Assembly: GCA_041937175.2 (NCBI GenBank)
Contig: CP166615.1
Span: forward strand, 1,344,001 to 1,408,000
Reading direction: 5' to 3'
Origin: Limnothrix sp. BL-A-16
Lineage (GTDB): Bacteria; Cyanobacteriota; Cyanobacteriia; CACIAM-69d
DNA: 64,000 bases
Every line of letters starts with the position of its first letter. The first letter of the stretch is position 1. A program made the translations under genes and the position numbers. Under the pieces are notes generated by a model. It did not search any database, had not been told where the DNA came from, and worked only from the letters and a program-made list of their open reading frames with translations. This document shows positions 20,544-48,378 of this stretch, piece after piece.

Positions 20544-21446
20544 TCAAATCGGGATTTCCTCGATCGCATCCCACAGGCGATCGAGCGGTTCCGTCAACGT
20601 CCAAGGCAAAGCCGCCACGGCCGATTCCGCCACCGAGGTCGATCGGCCGCAACGGCTGGCAAAGGCACACGATCGACAGGCGGGGCTGTGGGCCGGCAAT
20701 TGCGGCAGCGCCTGCCCCCCGTGGTAGGCGGTAATTGACGAGTCGATCGCCTGGGACATCTCCAGCAATTGCGCCCGAGTTGCTTGATGCCAATCTGCGC
20801 TGTATGCAAACGTTTCGCAAGCCAACTCTGGCCCGTTGGCAGCGGTTGAAGCGGCCGGTGATCGCACAAACCAGTAGCTCATGGTCAGGCGATCGGGCGG
20901 TAAATGGCTCGTTTCCGCCAACACAAAAAGATACAAACGGGTTTGCCAATCCTCTTGCAACCGATCGCGCGACAGGGGTTGGGCGTGAGTTTTCCAGTCA
21001 AAAATCTGCGCTTCCGTGGGCCGCGTCGCCAACAGGTCATACACCACAGTGAGCAAGTGATCACCCATTACCCAAGTGCGGCGATGTTCCGCATCCAGTT
21101 CCCAATCGCTGGCTCCCGATTGATCCCACCACTGGCGCAATCCAGCCCAAGTGCGATCGACCGCTTGATGGAGCGCTTGGGCTTCCGCATCCTCTCCTGC
21201 CTGCAAAACCAAGGACATCTCGGCCGCCGATTCAGCCCCCAATTCAGTGAGCTTGCATTCCGCTCCACGGTTCTGAATGGATTGTTGCATCAACCAATGG
21301 AACCGACTTCCCCAAACCATTCGTTCCTGTTGGTGGGGATTGGCCGGCAACAGTAAGCAATCCAAATAAAGATGTTGAAACTGTCGCGGACAGGTCATCC
21401 AAGCATTCAAAACCCCTTGGGACAAATGCTGCATCATGCAAGGCAA
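20544..21446 (-). CDS. PD-(D/E)XK nuclease family protein (RecB-like)
   Basis: LSQG.LN...CPRQF, YDLL, IFDWKT, WQTRLY and a C-terminal CxxC...C. Confidence 0.85.
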   Translation of the reverse strand: MPCMMQHLSQGVLNAWMTCPRQFQHLYLDCLLLPANPHQQERMVWGSRFHWLMQQSIQNRGAECKLTELGAESAAEMSLVLQAGEDAEAQALHQAVDRTWAGLRQWWDQSGASDWELDAEHRRTWVMGDHLLTVVYDLLATRPTEAQIFDWKTHAQPLSRDRLQEDWQTRLYLFVLAETSHLPPDRLTMSYWFVRSPAASTAANGPELACETFAYSADWHQATRAQLLEMSQAIDSSITAYHGGQALPQLPAHSPACRSCAFASRCGRSTSVAESAVAALPWTLTEPLDRLWDAIEEIPI

Positions 21447-21464
21447 TATGGCTATCCAAAGCCA

Positions 21465-22070
21465 TTAAAAATCAAGTTCTTGAAATAATTCAGCGATCGG
21501 GAGGCTGAAACCTGGAATGATCGCTTCACCATCGAGGCGATCGGCTGTTTTGAGCAGGCGATCGGGTTCTTGGGGCGATCGATAAACCAAAATATAGCGC
21601 TGCTTTGGATTAATCACCCACATTAACCTTGTGCCGTTAGCAAAATATTCCGTGATTTTCCCGTCAATTTCTTCGACGGTGTTTCCTGGCGATAATCCTG
21701 GCAATAATACTTCTACGGCTAAGTCGGGTGCGCCTTCGAGAAATCCGGTGGGAAGGGTGGTGAATCCTTGAAGTCGGTTTTTGGCAAAAAAGGCTAAATC
21801 AGGCGATCGGGTGTTGCCATTTTGCATCTTGAAGCCAGTACTGGAATCAAACAGCAATCCCGGTTTTTGGCTCCGAATATAACTCCCCAATAAAATGATC
21901 AAGGTGCTGCAAATATAGCCATGTAAAGCACCGGAGTTTCCCAGATCAATGAGTTGATGATTGACGATTTCGTAGCGATGGCCGTCGTTGGGCAGCGCCA
22001 TGAAGGCGGCATCTGTCCAAGGAGATGAGGCGGAGGATTCGGGGGTGGGTCGCGGTTGCGTGAGGGTCAT
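21465..22070 (-). CDS. Uma2 family endonuclease
   Basis: RYEIV, RSPDLAF, APDLAVEV and YFANGTRLMWVINP; likely start ATG 22070. Confidence 0.9.
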   Translation of the reverse strand: MTLTQPRPTPESSASSPWTDAAFMALPNDGHRYEIVNHQLIDLGNSGALHGYICSTLIILLGSYIRSQKPGLLFDSSTGFKMQNGNTRSPDLAFFAKNRLQGFTTLPTGFLEGAPDLAVEVLLPGLSPGNTVEEIDGKITEYFANGTRLMWVINPKQRYILVYRSPQEPDRLLKTADRLDGEAIIPGFSLPIAELFQELDF

Positions 22071-22216
22071 GGCTGGCCTCGGGCGATCGCCTGGGAATAG
22101 ACCGATTATAGCGATCGCCCCTGGGCTGACCCAGAGCGGTTGACAGGGCATAATCGAGGGGATGCAGTCGCGGACAATGGCAAGCGAGATGACGCTGAAC
22201 CCCGGAGATCGGTTAA

Positions 22217-22780: not shown

Positions 22781-22945
22781 CCCATTTTGATTGCGGATTC
22801 GCCGTCATTCCGGTAACAATCATTTGCAAGTCATCCAGATTTGGTGTTTATTGGATCGGCTGGTCATCGATCAACGCAACATGTAGCGTTGATCGATGAC
22901 CAGCGGCCTTTCGTGTCGTCTCAACTGTTGTTCACAGCCAATCCC

Positions 22946-25900
22946 ATGGTGCAAGAACTGAACCGCGCTCAGCAGCAACCCGTCGATTTCCCTGACCACG
23001 CCCCCACCGCCTACCCGGTGTTTTACCGCACCTACAGCCGTCGGATGGACGGGGAGCGGGAATCGTGGCAGCAAACGACCGATCGCACCCTGCGCGGCTT
23101 GGTCAAGTTGGGCAATCTTTCCGATCAGGAAGCGAGCCTGCTCGATCGAATGCAGAAGCGGATTGTGGCGCTGCCGTCGGGGCGTTGGCTGTGGGTTGGG
23201 GGCACGGACTGGCTCGAAAACCCGCAAAACTTTTCAGGAGCCTACAACTGCACCAGCACCAATGTCATCGACTGGAAAGCCTTCGGGCTGATGATGGACT
23301 TGGCAATGATGGGCTGTGGCACGGGCGGCGTGCTGGAACCGCGCTACATTGAACAACTCCCGCCAGTGCGCAACTCAATCACCGTGACGGTGACGGGCGA
23401 GCTGGGTACGGTTCCGGTGGGTCAACGCTTGCAGGAAACAACGGTGGATATCGTTGGCAACGCGGTGCGTGTGGTGGTGGGCGACAGTCGCCAGGGCTGG
23501 GTGAAGTCTTACCAAACCTTGCTGGATCTGTGCAGCGATGAGCGCTTTGATGGCGAAGTGCAAGTGGCGATCGACCTCAGCAACGTGCGGCCGGCTGGGG
23601 AAACGCTCCGGGGCTTCGGTGGTGTGGCTAACCCGATCAAGCTGCCGGAACTCTACGATCGGGTGACTCGCATCTTGAACCGGGCGATCGGTCGGCAACT
23701 CACCTCGGTGGAATGCTGCTTACTTATCGACGAAGCGGCTGTCACAATTGTAGCCGGAAATATTCGCCGCAGTGCCGGAATCCGCCAATTTGACAGTAAC
23801 GACGAGCTGGGAGCGACTGCCAAAGACAATTTGTGGCAGCAAGATGAGTCTGGTAATTGGCGAATTGATCCCGATCGCGACTCCCTGCGGATGGCGAATC
23901 ACTCGCGAGTTTTTCATCACAAACCCACGGAAACGGAGTGCATTGACGCAGTTCGCAAGCAGTTCTATTCCGGCGAAGGTGCAATTCAATGGGCTGGCGA
24001 AGCGATCGCCCGCAGCAATGCCGATTTGATTTCTGGAACCGATGAAAAGAAAGCGTTTATTGCTGCTTTTCAGGAACAGAAGGGCGCAGAGTGGCTGAAA
24101 GCAAAGTCACCAGAAATTGATGAGCGAGAATCTGCCCATCGTCTGCAACGCTATGGCTTGAATCCTTGCATCACGGCTGATACCTGGGTACATACAGAAT
24201 TTGGCCCGCGCCAGGTCAAGGAGCTGATTGGTCAACAGCATGGAACCTATGTCAATGGCGAGCTTTTCAGCACGACGGCAGAAGGCTTTTTCTACACAGG
24301 CGATAAACCAGTCTTCAAAGTAACCACTCGCGAAGGGTTGTCGCTGCGACTGACTGCAAACCACCAACTCTTGCGCGTGAGTGCTCAAACTCAAAAACGG
24401 CAGTATTTGGAATGGACTGCTGTTGAAGATTTGCAACCGGGCGATCGCCTCTCTATTCATAATCACCGTGACATTCAACCCTGGTCGGGTCACGGGACTT
24501 CTGATGAAGGCTGGTTGCTCGGAAACCTGGTTGGCGATGGCTCCCTCGCAGAAACAAGCTGGAGCGATCAAGGAATTCTGCGTTTTTGGGGTGATTCGCA
24601 ACAGGAAATGGCTGAGTATGCTGTGGCAACGCTCCAGAAAACGGTTGCCTGTGGCGCGAACTTGGCTGGTTCCTATCATCCCCATCATCACCTACATCAA
24701 ATTGCTTCGAGTGGCTTGGCGGCCCTAGCCGATCGCTTTGGAATTCATCGACGCGAAAAATGGGTGACGGGTGAAATTGAGCGATCGAGCTATGAGTTTC
24801 ACTGCGGTTTCTTGCGGGGACTATTTGATGCTGATGGCAGTGTTCAAGGCACTCAGCAAAAAGGCATTAGCGTCCGCTTAGCCCAAAGTAACTTGGCAAC
24901 CCTAGAAGCCGTTCAGCGGATGTTGCTGCGGATTGGCATTGTTTCAACGATCTATCAAAATCGTCGGCCAGCCGGTGTCCGTTTGATGCCCGATTCTGAT
25001 CGCAACTTGGCTCCTTACTTCTGCCAAGCGCAACATGAATTGGTGATTGCCAATGACAACCTCACGGAGTTTCGTGATCGGGTCGGCTTCCGGCAACCAG
25101 AGAAACAAGCCAAGCTCAACGAGCTATTAAGTCACTACAAGCGCAAGCTGAATCGCGATCGCTTCAGTGTCACGATCGCTGAAATCGCACCTGACGGAAT
25201 TGAAGCAGTTTATGACTGTACAGTTCCTGGCCCATCACGATTTGATGCGAATGGCTTCGTGGCTCACAACTGTGGTGAAATCCTAGGCGCTGATTTCCAC
25301 TGTGTTGCCGGGAATACGCTGCTGATTACCCGGGATGGACTGCATGAAATTCAGTCCTTGGTGGGGCAATCCGTGGAAGTTTGGAATGGACGGCGCTGGA
25401 GTTCTGTCACGCCGATTTTAACCGGCCGCGATCGGGCGCTCTTCCGCGTGAATTTTGCCGATGGCACGCATTTGGATGTGACGGAAGGCCACCGATTCTT
25501 TGTCAAAGATCGCTTTGGCAAAGACTATCAAGAACGGACGACGGCCGAATTGATTGACCAGTTGCCGAATCTGAAATATGCCCTCCATACGGAACCTTTC
25601 CAAATTGACCATCGGGATGGTGAGGCGATCGATCCAATTTGGGCCTACACCCTCGGGCAATTGGTTGGGGATGGTTCTCTGTGCCAATCCCATGGCAAGC
25701 CCCAACTGCAACTGCGGCTCTATGGAGTCAAGAGCTACCAGAAGGAATTGGCGATCGCGGGTCGCACATCGGGTCAACCTCGGTTCTATGCGGAAAACCC
25801 CGACACCCCCTGCTTGCTCTACACCGGCTTTGATCGAGAATTTGATCCGGAGCAGGTGCGGAACCTGAAGCAGACCGCTGAACCCTTTGAGGCGATCGCC

Positions 25901-27355
25901 CGCTGGAATCGTGAGGCCATTCTGCACTTCATTGCAGGTTTGATTGATGCGGATGGTTCCCTAACGGCGACCGGTGGCGTTCGCCTCTACCTCTCGGGCT
26001 ACGATCGCGCCTATCGGATCTATCTGTTGTTGCTGAAATGCGGCATTCGCTCTTCCATCAACCTGATGGCCCGGGCGGAAGAAACGACTAACCTAGGTGT
26101 TCGTCAGAAAGATTTGTGGTATTTGCAAATCACCGACTGTGCCGCCATTCCTTGCCAGCGAGTAGATACCAGCCGTGGTCATCAACCGGCCGCTAAGGGG
26201 AAATGGCAGGTGATTCGCTCGATCGAACCGTTGGATGGTCGCCACGACACCTTCTGTTTCAATGAGCCAGAGTTCCACAAGGGCGTTTTTGGTGGCACTT
26301 TGACCGGCCAGTGCAACCTGAGCGAAATTCACCTCAATCAAATCGATCCGAAAGATTACAAAACTCAAGAGGATGCCTTCAAAGCCGGTGCTCTATCGGT
26401 TGCTGGGTTGCTGAATCATTGCTTCCAAGAAGAGCGCTACCAATACAGCCGATCGATTGACCCGATCGTGGGTGTTTCCTTCACCGGTTTGTTCGATTTC
26501 TTTGTGCAAGCCTTTGGGGTCGATTGGTTGCGCTGGTGGGAAGCGGGTCGCCCGGACAGCGTGCAAGGTTTGGAATTTAAAGACCAGGAGCGGCAATACC
26601 TCAGCCGTTGGCGGGAAATTGTCCATCAAACGGTTTGGGATTACTGCGATCGCCATGGTCTGCGCCGGCCCAATCGCTGCACGACGGTGCAACCCTCGGG
26701 CACAAAATCGCTGTTGACGGGGGCTTCACCCGGTTGGCACCCACCCAAGGCTGCGCGGTTCATTCGGCGGATCACGTTCCGCAAAAACGACCCGGTGGCG
26801 TTGGCTTGTCTGGACTATGGCTACAGTATTGTGCCGTCCCAGTCCGATAAGGATGAAAATGGCAATTTGCTGAATGATCCGTTTGATCCGCGCTGCACTG
26901 AGTGGCTGGTGGAAATTCCGGTGGCGGTGTCTTGGGCGGACTTGCCGGGGGCGGACACGATCGCGATCGAGCAGTTCAGCGCTCTGGCTCAGTTTGACTT
27001 CTACATGCAGGTGCAAACCCACTACACCACCCACAACACCAGCGCCACGATCGAGCTGCGGGAACCGGAAATCGAACTCCTGGGCCGGCGGATCTATCAG
27101 GCCATCCAAAACGACGAGGGCTACATCTCAGCGGCCCTGTTGGCCCGGTTTGACGATCTGCAAACCTTCCCCCGGTTGCCCTTTGAGCCAATTTCGCGGG
27201 AAACCTATCAGGAAATGTACGATGCGGCGCTCCAGCGGCGGCGGATCAGCAGTTTCCACGAGGCCCTGCGGCGCTATGACAAGGGCGAAATGGCGGAAGC
27301 GGGCCCGGCGGGCTGCGATTCGGACAAGTGCCTGCTGCCAGAAACGAAGGGCTAG
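22946..27355 (+). CDS. nrdJ: Class II (B12-dependent) ribonucleotide reductase containing two inteins
   Basis: PVFYRTYSR, PSGRWLWVGG, YNCTS, GNIRRSA, NP|CGE, CNLSE, TTVQPSGT and C-terminal CDSDKC; predicted 764 aa after splicing. Confidence 0.95.
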   Translation: MVQELNRAQQQPVDFPDHAPTAYPVFYRTYSRRMDGERESWQQTTDRTLRGLVKLGNLSDQEASLLDRMQKRIVALPSGRWLWVGGTDWLENPQNFSGAYNCTSTNVIDWKAFGLMMDLAMMGCGTGGVLEPRYIEQLPPVRNSITVTVTGELGTVPVGQRLQETTVDIVGNAVRVVVGDSRQGWVKSYQTLLDLCSDERFDGEVQVAIDLSNVRPAGETLRGFGGVANPIKLPELYDRVTRILNRAIGRQLTSVECCLLIDEAAVTIVAGNIRRSAGIRQFDSNDELGATAKDNLWQQDESGNWRIDPDRDSLRMANHSRVFHHKPTETECIDAVRKQFYSGEGAIQWAGEAIARSNADLISGTDEKKAFIAAFQEQKGAEWLKAKSPEIDERESAHRLQRYGLNPCITADTWVHTEFGPRQVKELIGQQHGTYVNGELFSTTAEGFFYTGDKPVFKVTTREGLSLRLTANHQLLRVSAQTQKRQYLEWTAVEDLQPGDRLSIHNHRDIQPWSGHGTSDEGWLLGNLVGDGSLAETSWSDQGILRFWGDSQQEMAEYAVATLQKTVACGANLAGSYHPHHHLHQIASSGLAALADRFGIHRREKWVTGEIERSSYEFHCGFLRGLFDADGSVQGTQQKGISVRLAQSNLATLEAVQRMLLRIGIVSTIYQNRRPAGVRLMPDSDRNLAPYFCQAQHELVIANDNLTEFRDRVGFRQPEKQAKLNELLSHYKRKLNRDRFSVTIAEIAPDGIEAVYDCTVPGPSRFDANGFVAHNCGEILGADFHCVAGNTLLITRDGLHEIQSLVGQSVEVWNGRRWSSVTPILTGRDRALFRVNFADGTHLDVTEGHRFFVKDRFGKDYQERTTAELIDQLPNLKYALHTEPFQIDHRDGEAIDPIWAYTLGQLVGDGSLCQSHGKPQLQLRLYGVKSYQKELAIAGRTSGQPRFYAENPDTPCLLYTGFDREFDPEQVRNLKQTAEPFEAIARWNREAILHFIAGLIDADGSLTATGGVRLYLSGYDRAYRIYLLLLKCGIRSSINLMARAEETTNLGVRQKDLWYLQITDCAAIPCQRVDTSRGHQPAAKGKWQVIRSIEPLDGRHDTFCFNEPEFHKGVFGGTLTGQCNLSEIHLNQIDPKDYKTQEDAFKAGALSVAGLLNHCFQEERYQYSRSIDPIVGVSFTGLFDFFVQAFGVDWLRWWEAGRPDSVQGLEFKDQERQYLSRWREIVHQTVWDYCDRHGLRRPNRCTTVQPSGTKSLLTGASPGWHPPKAARFIRRITFRKNDPVALACLDYGYSIVPSQSDKDENGNLLNDPFDPRCTEWLVEIPVAVSWADLPGADTIAIEQFSALAQFDFYMQVQTHYTTHNTSATIELREPEIELLGRRIYQAIQNDEGYISAALLARFDDLQTFPRLPFEPISRETYQEMYDAALQRRRISSFHEALRRYDKGEMAEAGPAGCDSDKCLLPETKG
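24167..25270 (+). mobile_element. Intein 1 with LAGLIDADG homing endonuclease (368 aa)
   Basis: Starts CITADTWV; block B LTANH; LGNLVGDGS and FLRGLFDADGS; ends VYDCTV...FVAHN|C. Confidence 0.95.
25301..26311 (+). mobile_element. Intein 2 with LAGLIDADG endonuclease and C-terminal Gln (337 aa)
   Basis: Starts CVAGNTLLITRDG; block B VTEGH; LGQLVGDGS and FIAGLIDADGS; ends DTFCFNEPEFHKGVFGGTLTGQ|C. Confidence 0.92.
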
Positions 27356-47350: not shown

Positions 47351-48378
47351 CAGTTCTTACCGTAATCACTAGGTACAATAACAACATTTGGTAAACCAGT
47401 TTTTCAGGCACTGTAAATCCACCAGTCGGGCTGCCAATCTAGTTAATTGTTCCAACACTTCTATGGTTTCTGTTCTAAATTTCCACAAAAAGATTTTTAA
47501 CTGTGACCACATCATTTCTATAGGTTTAAAATCTGGTGAGTACACTGGCAGATATTCTACTGTTGCTCCTACTGCTTCTATCATTTCTTTCACTTCTGGA
47601 CGATGATGAGAGTTTAAGTTGTCCATGATAACCACATCACCCACTTTTAACTGCTGTGCCAAATTTACTTTAACAAACTCTAGAAAATCTTCCTTTTTCA
47701 TTGAGCCTTTCAATCCTTTTATTGTGACAACTCCTGATCGCCTGATCGCACTAATGACTGTCATCTTTTTACCGTAATAGGGCTTCTGGGTTTCATAAGC
47801 CTTCATTCCTTTTTTAGCTCTGGCCATGGGGCGATTCATCCCAACCCAAAAACCGCTTTCGTCAATGAAGACAAGCTTTTCAGCTTCCACTTTCAAAATT
47901 CGCTGCCAGTAGCTCACGCGCTCGGCTTGTACTTCCGCCGTGATTACTTTTTCGCTCCTGTATGTTTTTTTGAGGCTGATGTCATGTTGCTTTAAAAATC
48001 GATCCATCATGCTTGTGTTAGAACTGACACCCAATTTTTCTTGCACTGCTTCGCAATACTCTCGCAATGTAAAATCAGGATTAGTCTCTACAATTTCTAA
48101 GATGGCTTCTTCATGCTGAGACAAGATGCTCACTCGCTTCGTGCCACACTTCTTAGGTACTAAGCTTCCAGTTGAACGATATAGATTTAGAAGCCGCCTG
48201 ACGGTATCTGGACTAATCGAAAACTGTTTTGCCACTTTCCGAATTGAAGTGTCTCCCTTTTCGTAGGCTTCTACAATCTTTCGGCGCAAGTCCAGAGAAT
48301 AACGACCCATGAGTTTTCCTGACGATAACTCAACTACACTTATAATTATGTCGTACCAATCGTTCTAGGTAAAGGCTG
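47351..48378 (-). mobile_element. IS630-family insertion sequence
   Basis: Imperfect terminal repeats CAGTTCTTACC...GGTAC and CAGCCTTTACC...GGTAC; TA on the left flank only; low GC; no HIP1 seen. Confidence 0.8.
47369..48310 (-). CDS. IS630 transposase
   Basis: YSLDLRRKIV HTH, FIDESG, IMDN..SH and YSPDFKPIE. Confidence 0.93.
   Translation of the reverse strand: MGRYSLDLRRKIVEAYEKGDTSIRKVAKQFSISPDTVRRLLNLYRSTGSLVPKKCGTKRVSILSQHEEAILEIVETNPDFTLREYCEAVQEKLGVSSNTSMMDRFLKQHDISLKKTYRSEKVITAEVQAERVSYWQRILKVEAEKLVFIDESGFWVGMNRPMARAKKGMKAYETQKPYYGKKMTVISAIRRSGVVTIKGLKGSMKKEDFLEFVKVNLAQQLKVGDVVIMDNLNSHHRPEVKEMIEAVGATVEYLPVYSPDFKPIEMMWSQLKIFLWKFRTETIEVLEQLTRLAARLVDLQCLKNWFTKCCYCT

What the first reader, a model, noticed from the sequence alone, without database searches (positions are those of the whole stretch)
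24167..26311. Two back-to-back inteins gate both predicted catalytic cysteines of NrdJ, leaving a 10-residue extein
Seen: the NrdJ reads YGLNP|intein 1 (368 aa)|CGEILGADFH|intein 2 (337 aa)|CNLSE. Established: in class II RNRs the Cys of NPCGE is the thiyl-radical residue, and the nearby CNL Cys is one of the redox-active pair. Inference: each catalytic Cys is also the +1 splicing nucleophile, so dNTP synthesis needs two ordered splicing events around a 30-nt extein. This could act as a redox/metal-sensitive switch, and the two endonucleases would have overlapping homing sites and co-convert each other. Multi-intein nrdJ genes are known in cyanobacteria (Trichodesmium), so the class is not new; this pairing may be.
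Basis: partly seen in the sequence, partly recalled or inferred. Interest (0 to 1): 0.75.

Follow-up and report, generated by a model that had tools for sequence, protein, structure and literature searches.

The report
Two common inteins in cyanobacterial NrdJ
A cyanobacterial B12-dependent ribonucleotide reductase gene carries two self-splicing, mobile protein inserts ten residues apart, each sitting directly before an active-site cysteine; the arrangement is real but is widespread among cyanobacteria, so it is ordinary.

Summary
One ORF (ATG 22946 to stop 27355) encodes an RTPR-type NrdJ. It is interrupted by a 368-aa intein (24167-25270), a 10-aa extein CGEILGADFH (25271-25300) and a 337-aa intein (25301-26311). 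In silico splicing gives 764 aa. The two +1 cysteines align with C408 and C419 of L. leichmannii RTPR.

The pairing is not new. Of the 120 best intein-bearing relatives, 66 carry inteins at both sites, including named Synechococcus PCC 6312, Geitlerinema PCC 7407, Nostoc, Nodularia, Dolichospermum and Trichodesmium genomes. Cyanobacterial NrdJ has four recurrent sites (a-d), and nine different combinations of them occur.

Relatives with at least 90% extein identity have no intein (Limnothrix), b+c, b+c+d, a+b+d, or b+c with an unrelated intein at site b. The inteins are therefore dispensable, and they come and go independently.

Both inteins keep their splicing residues and both LAGLIDADG motifs. 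The Gly-Gln end of intein 2 is typical of its RNR-associated family.

I found no evidence for ordered splicing or a redox switch; both remain untested. Best reading: two independent selfish homing inteins at known RNR hot spots. Interest is low.

The parts
22946..24166 (+). nrdJ N-extein (407 aa), ending YGLNP. Contains AYNCTST (23240-23260), the likely counterpart of RTPR C119.
   Evidence: TIGR02505 and Pfam RNR-II_ins_dom/RNR_Alpha hits. The ATG 22946 start is supported by the homologue consensus MVQEL. The C119 equivalence is inferred from the NC motif; it is not aligned by phmmer.
24167..25270 (+). Intein 1 (site b), 368 aa. Cys1 at 24167; block B LTANH at 24350-24364; LAGLIDADG motifs LLGNLVGDGS at 24515-24544 and FLRGLFDADGS at 24809-24841; C-terminal FVAHN at 25256-25270.
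   Evidence: C1, the T and H of block B, H-N and the +1 Cys are invariant in 36 sequences.
25271..25300 (+). 10-residue mini-extein CGEILGADFH. Its first Cys corresponds to RTPR C408.
   Evidence: Predicted as a low-confidence linker (pLDDT <50 for cassette residues 400-407) between two well-folded inteins.
25301..26311 (+). Intein 2 (site c), 337 aa. Cys1 at 25301; block B VTEGH at 25478-25492; LAGLIDADG motifs TLGQLVGDGS at 25649-25678 and FIAGLIDADGS at 25928-25960; block F/G DTFCFNEPEFHKGVF at 26246-26290. The C-terminus TLTGQ (26297-26311) has Gly-Gln in place of His-Asn.
   Evidence: C1, T61, H64, D124, D218, C319, H326 and G336 are invariant in 42 sequences.
26312..27355 (+). nrdJ C-extein (347 aa plus stop), starting CNLSE (Cys corresponds to RTPR C419). 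Contains the C-terminal GCDSDKC pair at 27311-27331.
   Evidence: (TIGR02505 stretch 1122-1465 matching profile 387-724). Calling the CxxxxC tail the counterpart of RTPR C731/C736 is recalled knowledge.

Best explanation
The locus is a functional nrdJ gene (monomeric, RTPR-type class II ribonucleotide reductase) of a Limnothrix-like cyanobacterium. It has been invaded by two separate homing inteins at two recurrent RNR insertion sites. Site b lies directly before the thiyl-radical Cys of NPCGE, and site c lies directly before the redox-pair Cys of CNL, ten residues later. Each insert is a class-1 HINT splicing domain with a nested double-motif LAGLIDADG endonuclease. After translation, each intein removes itself autocatalytically, using its own Cys1 and the extein's +1 Cys, and the three extein pieces are joined into a 764-aa enzyme. 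Shown: the anatomy, the conservation of all splicing and endonuclease motif residues, the fold of intein 2, the alignment to RTPR C408/C419, and the presence/absence pattern in relatives. Inferred: that both inteins splice, that they do so independently and constitutively, and that they persist as selfish elements by endonuclease-driven homing into empty alleles rather than because the host uses them. The catalytic cysteines are 'gated' only in the trivial sense that inteins need a nucleophilic +1 residue and home to highly conserved sequence, which is where catalytic residues lie.
For: Anatomy and family. Catalytic alignment.

Splicing residues are conserved. For intein 1, C1, block B T..H, HN and the +1 C are invariant in 36 sequences. 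For intein 2, C1, T61, H64, H326 and the +1 C are invariant in 42 sequences. The LAGLIDADG acidic residues are invariant or nearly invariant, which suggests selection on the endonuclease. The intein 2 fold matches HE-bearing inteins.

Mobility and dispensability: among the 120 best hits of 807-2571 aa there are nine combinations of four sites: b 27, c 14, ab 4, ac 8, bc 39, abc 21, abd 1, bcd 5, abcd 1. All 120 best shorter hits have no intein. Relatives with at least 90% extein identity show five states: none (P0121, P0122), bc (P0001), bcd (P0002), abd (P0022), and bc with a 30%-identical intein at site b (P0004).

Composition: GC3 is 0.50 in intein 1 and 0.61 in intein 2, against 0.65 and 0.70 in the exteins.

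The Gly-Gln end is the family norm: 120 of 133 full-length matches among the 150 best 50%-representatives end in Gln, and 75 of 133 precede CNL. The review PMC4031507 (passages read) says that the Gln-ending CIV RNR intein splices efficiently and that inteins lacking the penultimate His can be functional. Barzel et al. 2011 (PMC3159444, passages read) showed that a Nostoc PCC 7120 RNR intein endonuclease cleaves empty RNR targets.

The cassette AF2 model gives two well-folded inteins joined by a low-confidence linker, with pTM 0.54.
Against: No splicing, endonuclease or RNR activity was measured for this sequence.

The 66/120 frequency comes from a search seeded with a b+c protein and is biased towards b+c. 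In an independent, differently biased sample of 78 species genomes, only 2 had b+c.

Intein-b and intein-c distances keep a small but significant partial correlation (0.16, p 0.001), so some joint inheritance or co-conversion is not excluded.

Novikova et al. 2016 (PMC4760082, passages read) argue that clustering of inteins at functional sites may have functional importance. The same review that calls inteins parasites also lists redox-sensitive disulfides between catalytic cysteines. Four such cysteines lie within or at the edges of this 10-mer.

Pfam/TIGR HINT models do not reach cut-off on intein 2.
Confidence: 0.85

Rival explanations
1. Conditional gate: the two inteins act as a redox- or metal-sensitive post-translational switch on dNTP synthesis. 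Disulfides or metal binding among Cys1/Cys+1 of both inteins would hold NrdJ as an inactive precursor under oxidative stress.
For: Both junctions use Cys1 and Cys+1, and the +1 residues are the catalytic C408/C419 equivalents. The review PMC4031507 lists disulfides between active-site cysteines and divalent cations as known modulators of splicing. The b+c pair is frequent in cyanobacteria, which are oxygenic organisms.
Against: Nothing in any call shows conditionality. The closest relatives (96% extein identity) lack both inteins, and every combination of sites occurs. Site b turns over independently of site c. The endonuclease motifs are conserved, as expected for selfish homing. The 2014 review states that no physiologically relevant role for conditional splicing had been found. 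Later work that I recall but did not read reports stress-sensitive SufB, DnaB and RadA inteins.
Confidence: 0.08
2. Obligatorily ordered or cooperative splicing: one intein must leave before the other can fold or react, because only 10 residues separate them.
For: The very short shared extein supplies the +1 side of intein 1 and the -1 side of intein 2. Intein 2 ends in Gly-Gln, and some Gln-ending inteins are slow at the cyclisation step (Pab and Mma PolII), which could give a kinetic order.
Against: b-only (27) and c-only (14) alleles exist among the 120 hits, so each intein works in a context without the other. Unrelated inteins at site b coexist with the same intein c (P0004, P0051). The AF2 cassette model shows two separately folded domains and no confident packing. 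I recall, without having read the paper, that Liu et al. 2003 showed each of the four Trichodesmium inteins splicing in E. coli.
Confidence: 0.05
3. Decayed element or pseudogene: one intein no longer splices and the gene is non-functional, with another RNR elsewhere in the genome supplying dNTPs.
For: Intein 2 lacks the canonical His-Asn and misses the HINT HMM cut-offs. The rest of the genome was not available.
Against: The 1469-codon frame is intact. All catalytic positions are conserved. Gln termini are the norm for this family (120 of 133). A 98% identical b+c allele (P0001) and many others at 60-80% identity keep the same open architecture, which is not expected of pseudogenes.
Confidence: 0.02

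Closest known systems
Trichodesmium erythraeum nrdJ with four inteins (Liu, Yang and Meng 2003, J Biol Chem 278:46826). The paper is not held; its title and the 'four inteins' statement were seen in PMC2874743 and PMC1635734.
   Same: Same host enzyme and, by my survey, the same four recurrent sites a-d. A 2196-aa abcd allele (P0070) and b+c alleles named Trichodesmium sp. (P0047, P0049) are among the hits. I recall from the abstract that two of its sites are 10 residues apart next to catalytic residues and that all four inteins spliced in E. coli. That is recall, not something I read here.
   Different: The window has only sites b and c occupied and no group II introns. Its site-c intein is the 337-aa Gly-Gln type, whereas the Trichodesmium-named relatives have the 323-aa Gly-Asn type.
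b+c double-intein NrdJ alleles in named cyanobacterial genomes (Synechococcus sp. PCC 6312 P0021, Geitlerinema sp. PCC 7407 P0025, Nostoc, Nodularia spumigena, Dolichospermum, Kamptonema, Okeania)
   Same: Identical architecture NP|C...HN|CGE-x5-FH|C...G[QN]|CNL. Full-length coverage at 61-79% identity.
   Different: The host lineage differs (Limnothrix-like; extein 96% identical to Limnothrix sp. FACHB-708). Nothing differs architecturally.
Gln-terminated inteins (Chilo iridescent virus RNR intein; Pyrococcus abyssi and Methanoculleus marisnigri PolII inteins), as summarised in PMC4031507
   Same: Intein 2 ends in Gln and lacks the penultimate His. Gln cyclisation replaces Asn cyclisation. 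The family is RNR-associated.
   Different: No direct sequence or structure comparison with the CIV intein was made; it was not among the top 50 BFVD hits. The splicing rate of intein 2 is unknown.
Nostoc sp. PCC 7120 RNR intein homing endonuclease (Barzel et al. 2011, PMC3159444)
   Same: A LAGLIDADG endonuclease inside a cyanobacterial RNR intein, shown to cut empty RNR alleles of other cyanobacteria.
   Different: I could not establish from the passages read which site (b or c) that intein occupies. The endonucleases here are untested.
Redox-trapped or disulfide-controlled inteins (references 79, 99 and 100 of PMC4031507)
   Same: Cys1 and Cys+1 at both junctions could form such disulfides.
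   Different: No evidence here for a disulfide or for conditional splicing. This is a resemblance in residues only.

Membership tests
RTPR-type (monomeric) class II ribonucleotide reductase, TIGR02505 | Whole-protein HMM score above the curated cut-off | tested here: met
   748.8 bits against a cut-off of 340.05, in two stretches around the inserts.
RTPR-type (monomeric) class II ribonucleotide reductase, TIGR02505 | Thiyl-radical Cys in NPCGE and the partner Cys in CNL (RTPR C408 and C419) | tested here: met
   The alignment of P0121 (96.1% identical to the spliced product) to 1l1l_A places them on C408 and C419. In the window they are the two +1 residues. The residue roles are recalled.
RTPR-type (monomeric) class II ribonucleotide reductase, TIGR02505 | Adenosylcobalamin-dependent NTP reduction | not testable with these tools
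   This needs an enzyme assay.
Class 1 intein (HINT domain): intein 1 | Cys/Ser1, block B T-x-x-H, C-terminal His-Asn, +1 Cys/Ser/Thr, HINT HMM hit | tested here: met
   C1, LTANH, HN|C. Pfam Intein_splicing 46.8 bits (cut-off 35.8), TIGR01445 25.9 bits (24.5), TIGR01443 20.1 bits (15.6). The residues are invariant in 36 sequences.
Class 1 intein (HINT domain): intein 2 | Cys1, block B T-x-x-H, +1 Cys, HINT fold | tested here: met
   C1, VTEGH, |CNL, invariant in 42 sequences. The AF2 model (pLDDT 91) matches intein-HE structures at E down to 8.8e-16.
Class 1 intein (HINT domain): intein 2 | Canonical C-terminal His-Asn and HINT HMMs above cut-off | tested here: not met
   It ends Gly-Gln. TIGR01445 scores 22.2 bits, below 24.5, and there is no TIGR01443 or Pfam Intein_splicing hit. 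Gln termini and loss of the penultimate His are accepted intein variants and are the norm in this family (120 of 133), so this does not exclude membership.
Class 1 intein: both inteins | Actual protein splicing | not testable with these tools
   This needs expression and a gel or mass spectrometry.
LAGLIDADG (double-motif) homing endonuclease | Two LAGLIDADG motifs with conserved acidic residues; family HMM; fold | tested here: met
   Intein 1: LVGDGS and LFDADGS, LAGLIDADG_3 82.2 bits. Intein 2: LVGDGS and LIDADGS, 27.3 bits (cut-off 22.5). D124 and D218 of intein 2 are invariant. The fold matches PI-PfuI, PI-SceI and I-DmoI.
LAGLIDADG (double-motif) homing endonuclease | Site-specific cleavage of the empty allele | not testable with these tools
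   Only an analogous enzyme was shown to be active (Nostoc PCC 7120).
Conditional (redox- or metal-controlled) intein | Splicing demonstrably blocked or released by a physiological signal | not testable with these tools
   Only the presence of Cys1/Cys+1 pairs can be stated.

The most novel reading that the evidence does not exclude
The b+c pair is more than two parasites. The four cysteines packed around the 10-residue active-site segment (Cys1 and Cys+1 of each intein) would make NrdJ maturation a two-key, redox-sensitive step. A kinetic order would be set by a fast His-Asn intein and a slower Gly-Gln intein, and this would tune dNTP supply in an oxygenic phototroph. A related and somewhat better supported variant is that the 30-bp segment is a contested homing hot spot for three self-splicing elements: intein b, an intron 6 nt downstream, and intein c 30 nt downstream. 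Intein b and the intron would be mutually exclusive, since none of the 9 site-b loci carries the intron although 29 of 78 loci do.
Probability: 0.07. Interest if true: 0.55.

Novelty: already known. Interest (0 to 1): 0.15.

Why it matters
It matters little beyond correct annotation. The gene should be annotated as one nrdJ with two inteins and a mature product of 764 aa, not as a 1469-aa or 1504-aa enzyme. The locus is a clean natural example of two homing inteins 30 bp apart. Close relatives show empty, single, double and triple states, and one shows a swapped intein. That set could serve as material for studying the intein homing cycle, co-conversion over very short distances, and whether splicing at catalytic cysteines is ever conditional. 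None of this is shown here.

Tried and rejected
1. phmmer of the whole precursor against the PDB aligned only distal parts of RTPR and not the active-site loop. I used the intein-free P0121 instead.

2. The first gap-tolerant alignment mis-called odd insertions at reference positions 398/399 and 'WDG...' starts. Inspection showed ordinary site-b inteins in hosts that lack a variable N-extein segment. The motif-based re-classification had a faulty site-c pattern, which caught an FHC inside intein 1; one search corrected it.

3. Reading Liu et al. 2003 and Meng et al. 2007 failed because neither is held. The search 'Ter RIR1' gave 0 papers. The search 'inteins' + 'residues apart' + 'ribonucleotide reductase' gave only Novikova 2016, where the phrase refers to DnaB. 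None of the passages I read, from the ten papers opened after nine full-text searches, describes the 10-residue spacing. The library lacks the primary paper, so this says nothing about whether the spacing is in print.

4. Hot-spot test: among 27 intein-free ORFs, the 30-nt windows centred on sites b and c rank 589 and 775 of 2262 for nucleotide conservation. They are above the gene mean (0.83 and 0.81 against 0.78) but not exceptional. The sample was itself selected by conserved peptide patterns, so I draw no conclusion.

5. Rfam on the window found only two tRNAs, with no riboswitch or other RNA near nrdJ.

6. The AF2 model of the two-intein cassette gave no confident inter-intein packing (pTM 0.54, linker pLDDT <50). 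I treat this as no information on cooperation, not as evidence against it.

7. The BFVD search did not bring up the CIV RNR intein among the top 50, so a direct link to that characterised Gln-ending intein was not made.

No DNA-level comparison of the empty homing site in the closest relatives was therefore possible.

Full report
**What is there**

The window holds one long open frame, 22841..27355 on the + strand. Relatives start at the Met encoded by ATG 22946 (consensus MVQEL...), which gives a 1469-aa precursor.

- N-extein, ending YGLNP.
- Intein 1: nt 24167-25270, 368 aa, C...FVAHN.
- Mini-extein: CGEILGADFH, nt 25271-25300.
- Intein 2: nt 25301-26311, 337 aa, C...TLTGQ.
- C-extein, starting CNLSE.

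Removing both inserts in silico leaves 764 aa. That is the length of the intein-free NrdJ of Limnothrix sp. FACHB-708 and L. redekei (P0121 and P0122).

**Identity of the parts**

The precursor scores 748.8 bits on NCBIfam TIGR02505 against a cut-off of 340. This is the adenosylcobalamin-dependent ribonucleoside-triphosphate reductase, the L. leichmannii type. The match is in two stretches, the second starting at the residue before the CNL Cys.

Intein 1 passes the Pfam and TIGR intein models and LAGLIDADG_3.

Intein 2 passes only LAGLIDADG_3 (27.3 bits). It is just below cut-off on the N-terminal intein model and has no C-terminal hit, because it ends Gly-Gln rather than His-Asn. I therefore modelled it with an alignment of 42 sequences. 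The model has pLDDT 91 and pTM 0.91. Its best PDB matches are endonuclease-containing inteins: TliVMA 7qsu at E 8.8e-16, then PI-PfuI, PI-SceI and PhoVMA, followed by I-DmoI for the endonuclease half. In BFVD the best matches are intein-bearing viral ribonucleotide reductases and terminases.

In the 42-sequence alignment, Cys1, the block B Thr and His (T61, H64), H326, the penultimate Gly and the +1 Cys are invariant. So are the acidic residues of both LAGLIDADG motifs. The corresponding residues of intein 1 are invariant in 36 sequences. Both inserts therefore look like intact, selected inteins with intact endonucleases.

**Are the +1 cysteines the catalytic ones?**

phmmer of the whole precursor against the PDB did not align the active-site loop. 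The intein-free Limnothrix protein P0121 is 96.1% identical to the spliced window product, and its 10-mer differs at one residue. It aligns GLNPCGEI-LGSDFHCNLSE to residues 404-421 of 1l1l_A, GTNPCGEISLANGEPCNLFE. The two cysteines fall on C408 and C419.

That C408 is the thiyl-radical residue and that C419 pairs with C119 is recalled from the RTPR literature.

**Is the pairing new?**

No. I classified two sets of hits by insertion site: the 120 best hits of 807-2571 aa (1447 proteins had E <= 1e-10) and the 120 best shorter hits. It was corrected after inspection, and the final motif-based counts are.

Cyanobacterial NrdJ has four recurrent intein sites:

| Site | Junction |
|---|---|
| a | NIRR\|C...\|SAG |
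| b | NP\|C...HN\|CGE |
| c | FH\|C...G[QN]\|CNL |
| d | QPSG\|C...HN\|TKS |

Among the 120 longer hits the combinations are:

| Combination | Count |
|---|---|
| bc | 39 |
| b | 27 |
| abc | 21 |
| c | 14 |
| ac | 8 |
| bcd | 5 |
| ab | 4 |
| abd | 1 |
| abcd | 1 |

Sixty-six of the 120 therefore carry both b and c. All 120 shorter hits have no intein.

Named b+c genomes include Synechococcus sp. PCC 6312, Geitlerinema sp. PCC 7407, Nostoc, Nodularia spumigena, Dolichospermum, Kamptonema, Okeania and Trichodesmium sp..

This list was seeded with a b+c query, so it over-represents b+c. There, site b is occupied in 9 loci, site c in 10, and both in only 2, L006 and L011.

The four-intein Trichodesmium erythraeum gene is cited in reviews that I read in part. 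The primary paper is not held. I recall that its abstract already notes two sites 10 residues apart next to catalytic residues, and splicing of all four inteins in E. coli. That is recall only.

**Do the inteins behave as a unit or a switch?**

Relatives with at least 90% extein identity to the window show five states:

| Protein | Extein identity | State |
|---|---|---|
| P0001 | 98.2% | b+c; inteins 97% identical |
| P0004 | 98.4% | b+c; intein c 96% identical, site-b intein only 30% identical (a different intein lineage, CHSGDT...GCLTHN) |
| P0121, P0122 | 96% | no inteins |
| P0002 | 93% | b+c+d |
| P0022 | 90% | a+b+d, no c |

The inteins are therefore dispensable and turn over on the time scale of a genus.

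Over 67 b+c alleles, pairwise distances correlate as follows:
- Intein b with intein c: r = 0.35.
- Intein b with exteins: r = 0.43.
- Intein c with exteins: r = 0.53.
- Partial correlation of b with c, given exteins: 0.16 (permutation p 0.001).

Some shared history is not excluded, but there is no fixed cassette.

Fourteen of 98 site-b inteins are shorter than 340 aa, which indicates endonuclease-domain deletions. The 88 site-c inteins span only 322-339 aa. GC3 is 0.50 in intein 1 and 0.61 in intein 2, against 0.65 and 0.70 in the exteins. This fits foreign origin, more recent for intein 1.

The AF2 model of the whole cassette shows two well-folded inteins. The mini-extein is a low-confidence linker, and the domain arrangement is not confident (pTM 0.54).

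No call gives evidence for ordered splicing or for redox or metal control. Single b and single c alleles show that each intein functions without the other.

**The Gly-Gln end of intein 2**

Among the 88 site-c inteins, 59 end in GQ (331-337 aa) and 29 end in GN (322-339 aa).

A full scan of 1.84 billion 50%-representatives with intein 2 found 731 proteins at E <= 1e-10 and 101 at E <= 1e-30. Of the 150 best, 133 match full length. Of those 133:
- 120 end in Gln, 11 in Asn and 2 otherwise.
- 75 precede CNL, 12 precede CLV and 8 precede CGE.

I checked 20 of the 150 with Pfam:
- 14 have recognisable RNR domains.
- One has only an ATP-cone.
- One is a phage portal protein.
- Four show only intein or endonuclease domains.

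A terminal Gln is therefore the norm of a large, mostly RNR-borne intein family. The review PMC4031507 (passages read) records that Gln-ending inteins splice: slowly in the two PolII inteins, and efficiently in the Chilo iridescent virus RNR intein. It also records that inteins without the penultimate His can be functional.

**Context**

The surroundings are an ordinary cyanobacterial chromosome: Psb28, Ycf66, an SbtA-like transporter, HemC, heme oxygenase and others. There are two tRNAs and no riboswitch. Nothing nearby bears on the inteins.

**Side finding**

In 29 of the 78 genome loci, mostly Nostoc and relatives, the same 30-nt segment is interrupted by a non-coding insertion of 244-1156 nt.
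- It lies between the Gly and Glu codons of NPCGE, 6 nt after site b and 24 nt before site c.
- It always follows a T and always ends in G (2 of the 31 pattern hits were false).
- Thirteen copies fold into a common structure of 66 pairs, 32 of them with compensatory changes.
- Rfam gives no group I intron hit.
- A review (PMC12702839, passages read) cites Meng et al. 2007 for a group I intron in the Nostoc punctiforme PCC 73102 ribonucleotide reductase gene. I could not read that paper.
- The insertion co-occurs with intein c in three loci (L005, L007 and L022) and never with intein b (0 of 9). This is not corrected for phylogeny.

**Verdict**

The feature is real and correctly delimited, and the catalytic-cysteine mapping is right. 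It is, however, the standard b+c configuration of a well-populated family of cyanobacterial nrdJ alleles. The regulatory reading rests on nothing beyond the position of the cysteines. The most likely explanation is two independent selfish homing inteins at known RNR hot spots.

Noticed in passing
L067:7228-7515, and the equivalent position in 28 other loci (for example L034, L044, L005, L007, L022, L019, L030): A structured non-coding insertion of 244-1156 nt splits the NPCG|E codons of nrdJ in 29 of 78 genome loci. It lies 6 nt after intein site b and 24 nt before site c. The upstream exon ends in T and the insert ends in G. RNAalifold on 13 copies gives 66 pairs, 32 with compensatory changes. 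There is no Rfam hit. It is probably the group I intron reported for Nostoc punctiforme (Meng et al. 2007, not read). It was never seen together with a site-b intein (0 of 9) and was seen three times with a site-c intein.
   Followed up: partly
P0004 and P0051 (relatives; window equivalent 24167-25270): A different intein (365 aa, CHSGDT...GCLTHN, 30-32% identical to the window's intein 1) occupies site b. In P0004 the exteins (98.4%) and intein c (96.4%) are almost identical to the window's; P0051 is a more distant host (extein 76.4%, intein c 82.2% to the window) that pairs in the same way with P0003. This is intein replacement at one site while the neighbour 30 bp away stayed.
   Followed up: partly
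site-b and site-c inteins of the 120 hits: 14 of 98 site-b inteins are shorter than 340 aa (down to 273 aa, endonuclease-domain deletions). All 88 site-c inteins are 322-339 aa. The two sites seem to be at different stages of the homing cycle.
   Followed up: no
window 25301-26311 and P0241-P0390: Intein 2 belongs to a large, mostly RNR-borne intein family in which a C-terminal Gln is the rule (120 of 133 full-length matches). Members sit before CNL (75), CLV (12) and also before CGE (8), the thiyl-Cys site. One is in a phage portal protein, P0287.
   Followed up: partly
window 24029-24140 approx. (N-extein residues ~363-400): This segment of the N-extein just upstream of site b is absent in several relatives (for example P0008, P0009, P0046 and P0117). 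They read ...AGEAERRAQGEGRYGLNP|C. It misled the first alignment.
   Followed up: yes
window 22841-22945: The open frame extends 35 codons upstream to a TTG, but all relatives start at the ATG at 22946. An automatic caller could over-extend the gene.
   Followed up: yes
window 20547-22151 (-): A PD-(D/E)XK nuclease family protein (20547-21446) and a Uma2-family putative endonuclease (21468-22151) lie upstream of nrdJ on the opposite strand. No link to the inteins is apparent.
   Followed up: no
window 47372-48310 (-): An IS630/DDE_3-type transposase ORF.
   Followed up: no
L019:3967-4750: Five tandem NsiR1 (nitrogen stress-induced sRNA) copies lie upstream of nrdJ in Dolichospermum sp. UHCC 0259.
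   Followed up: no
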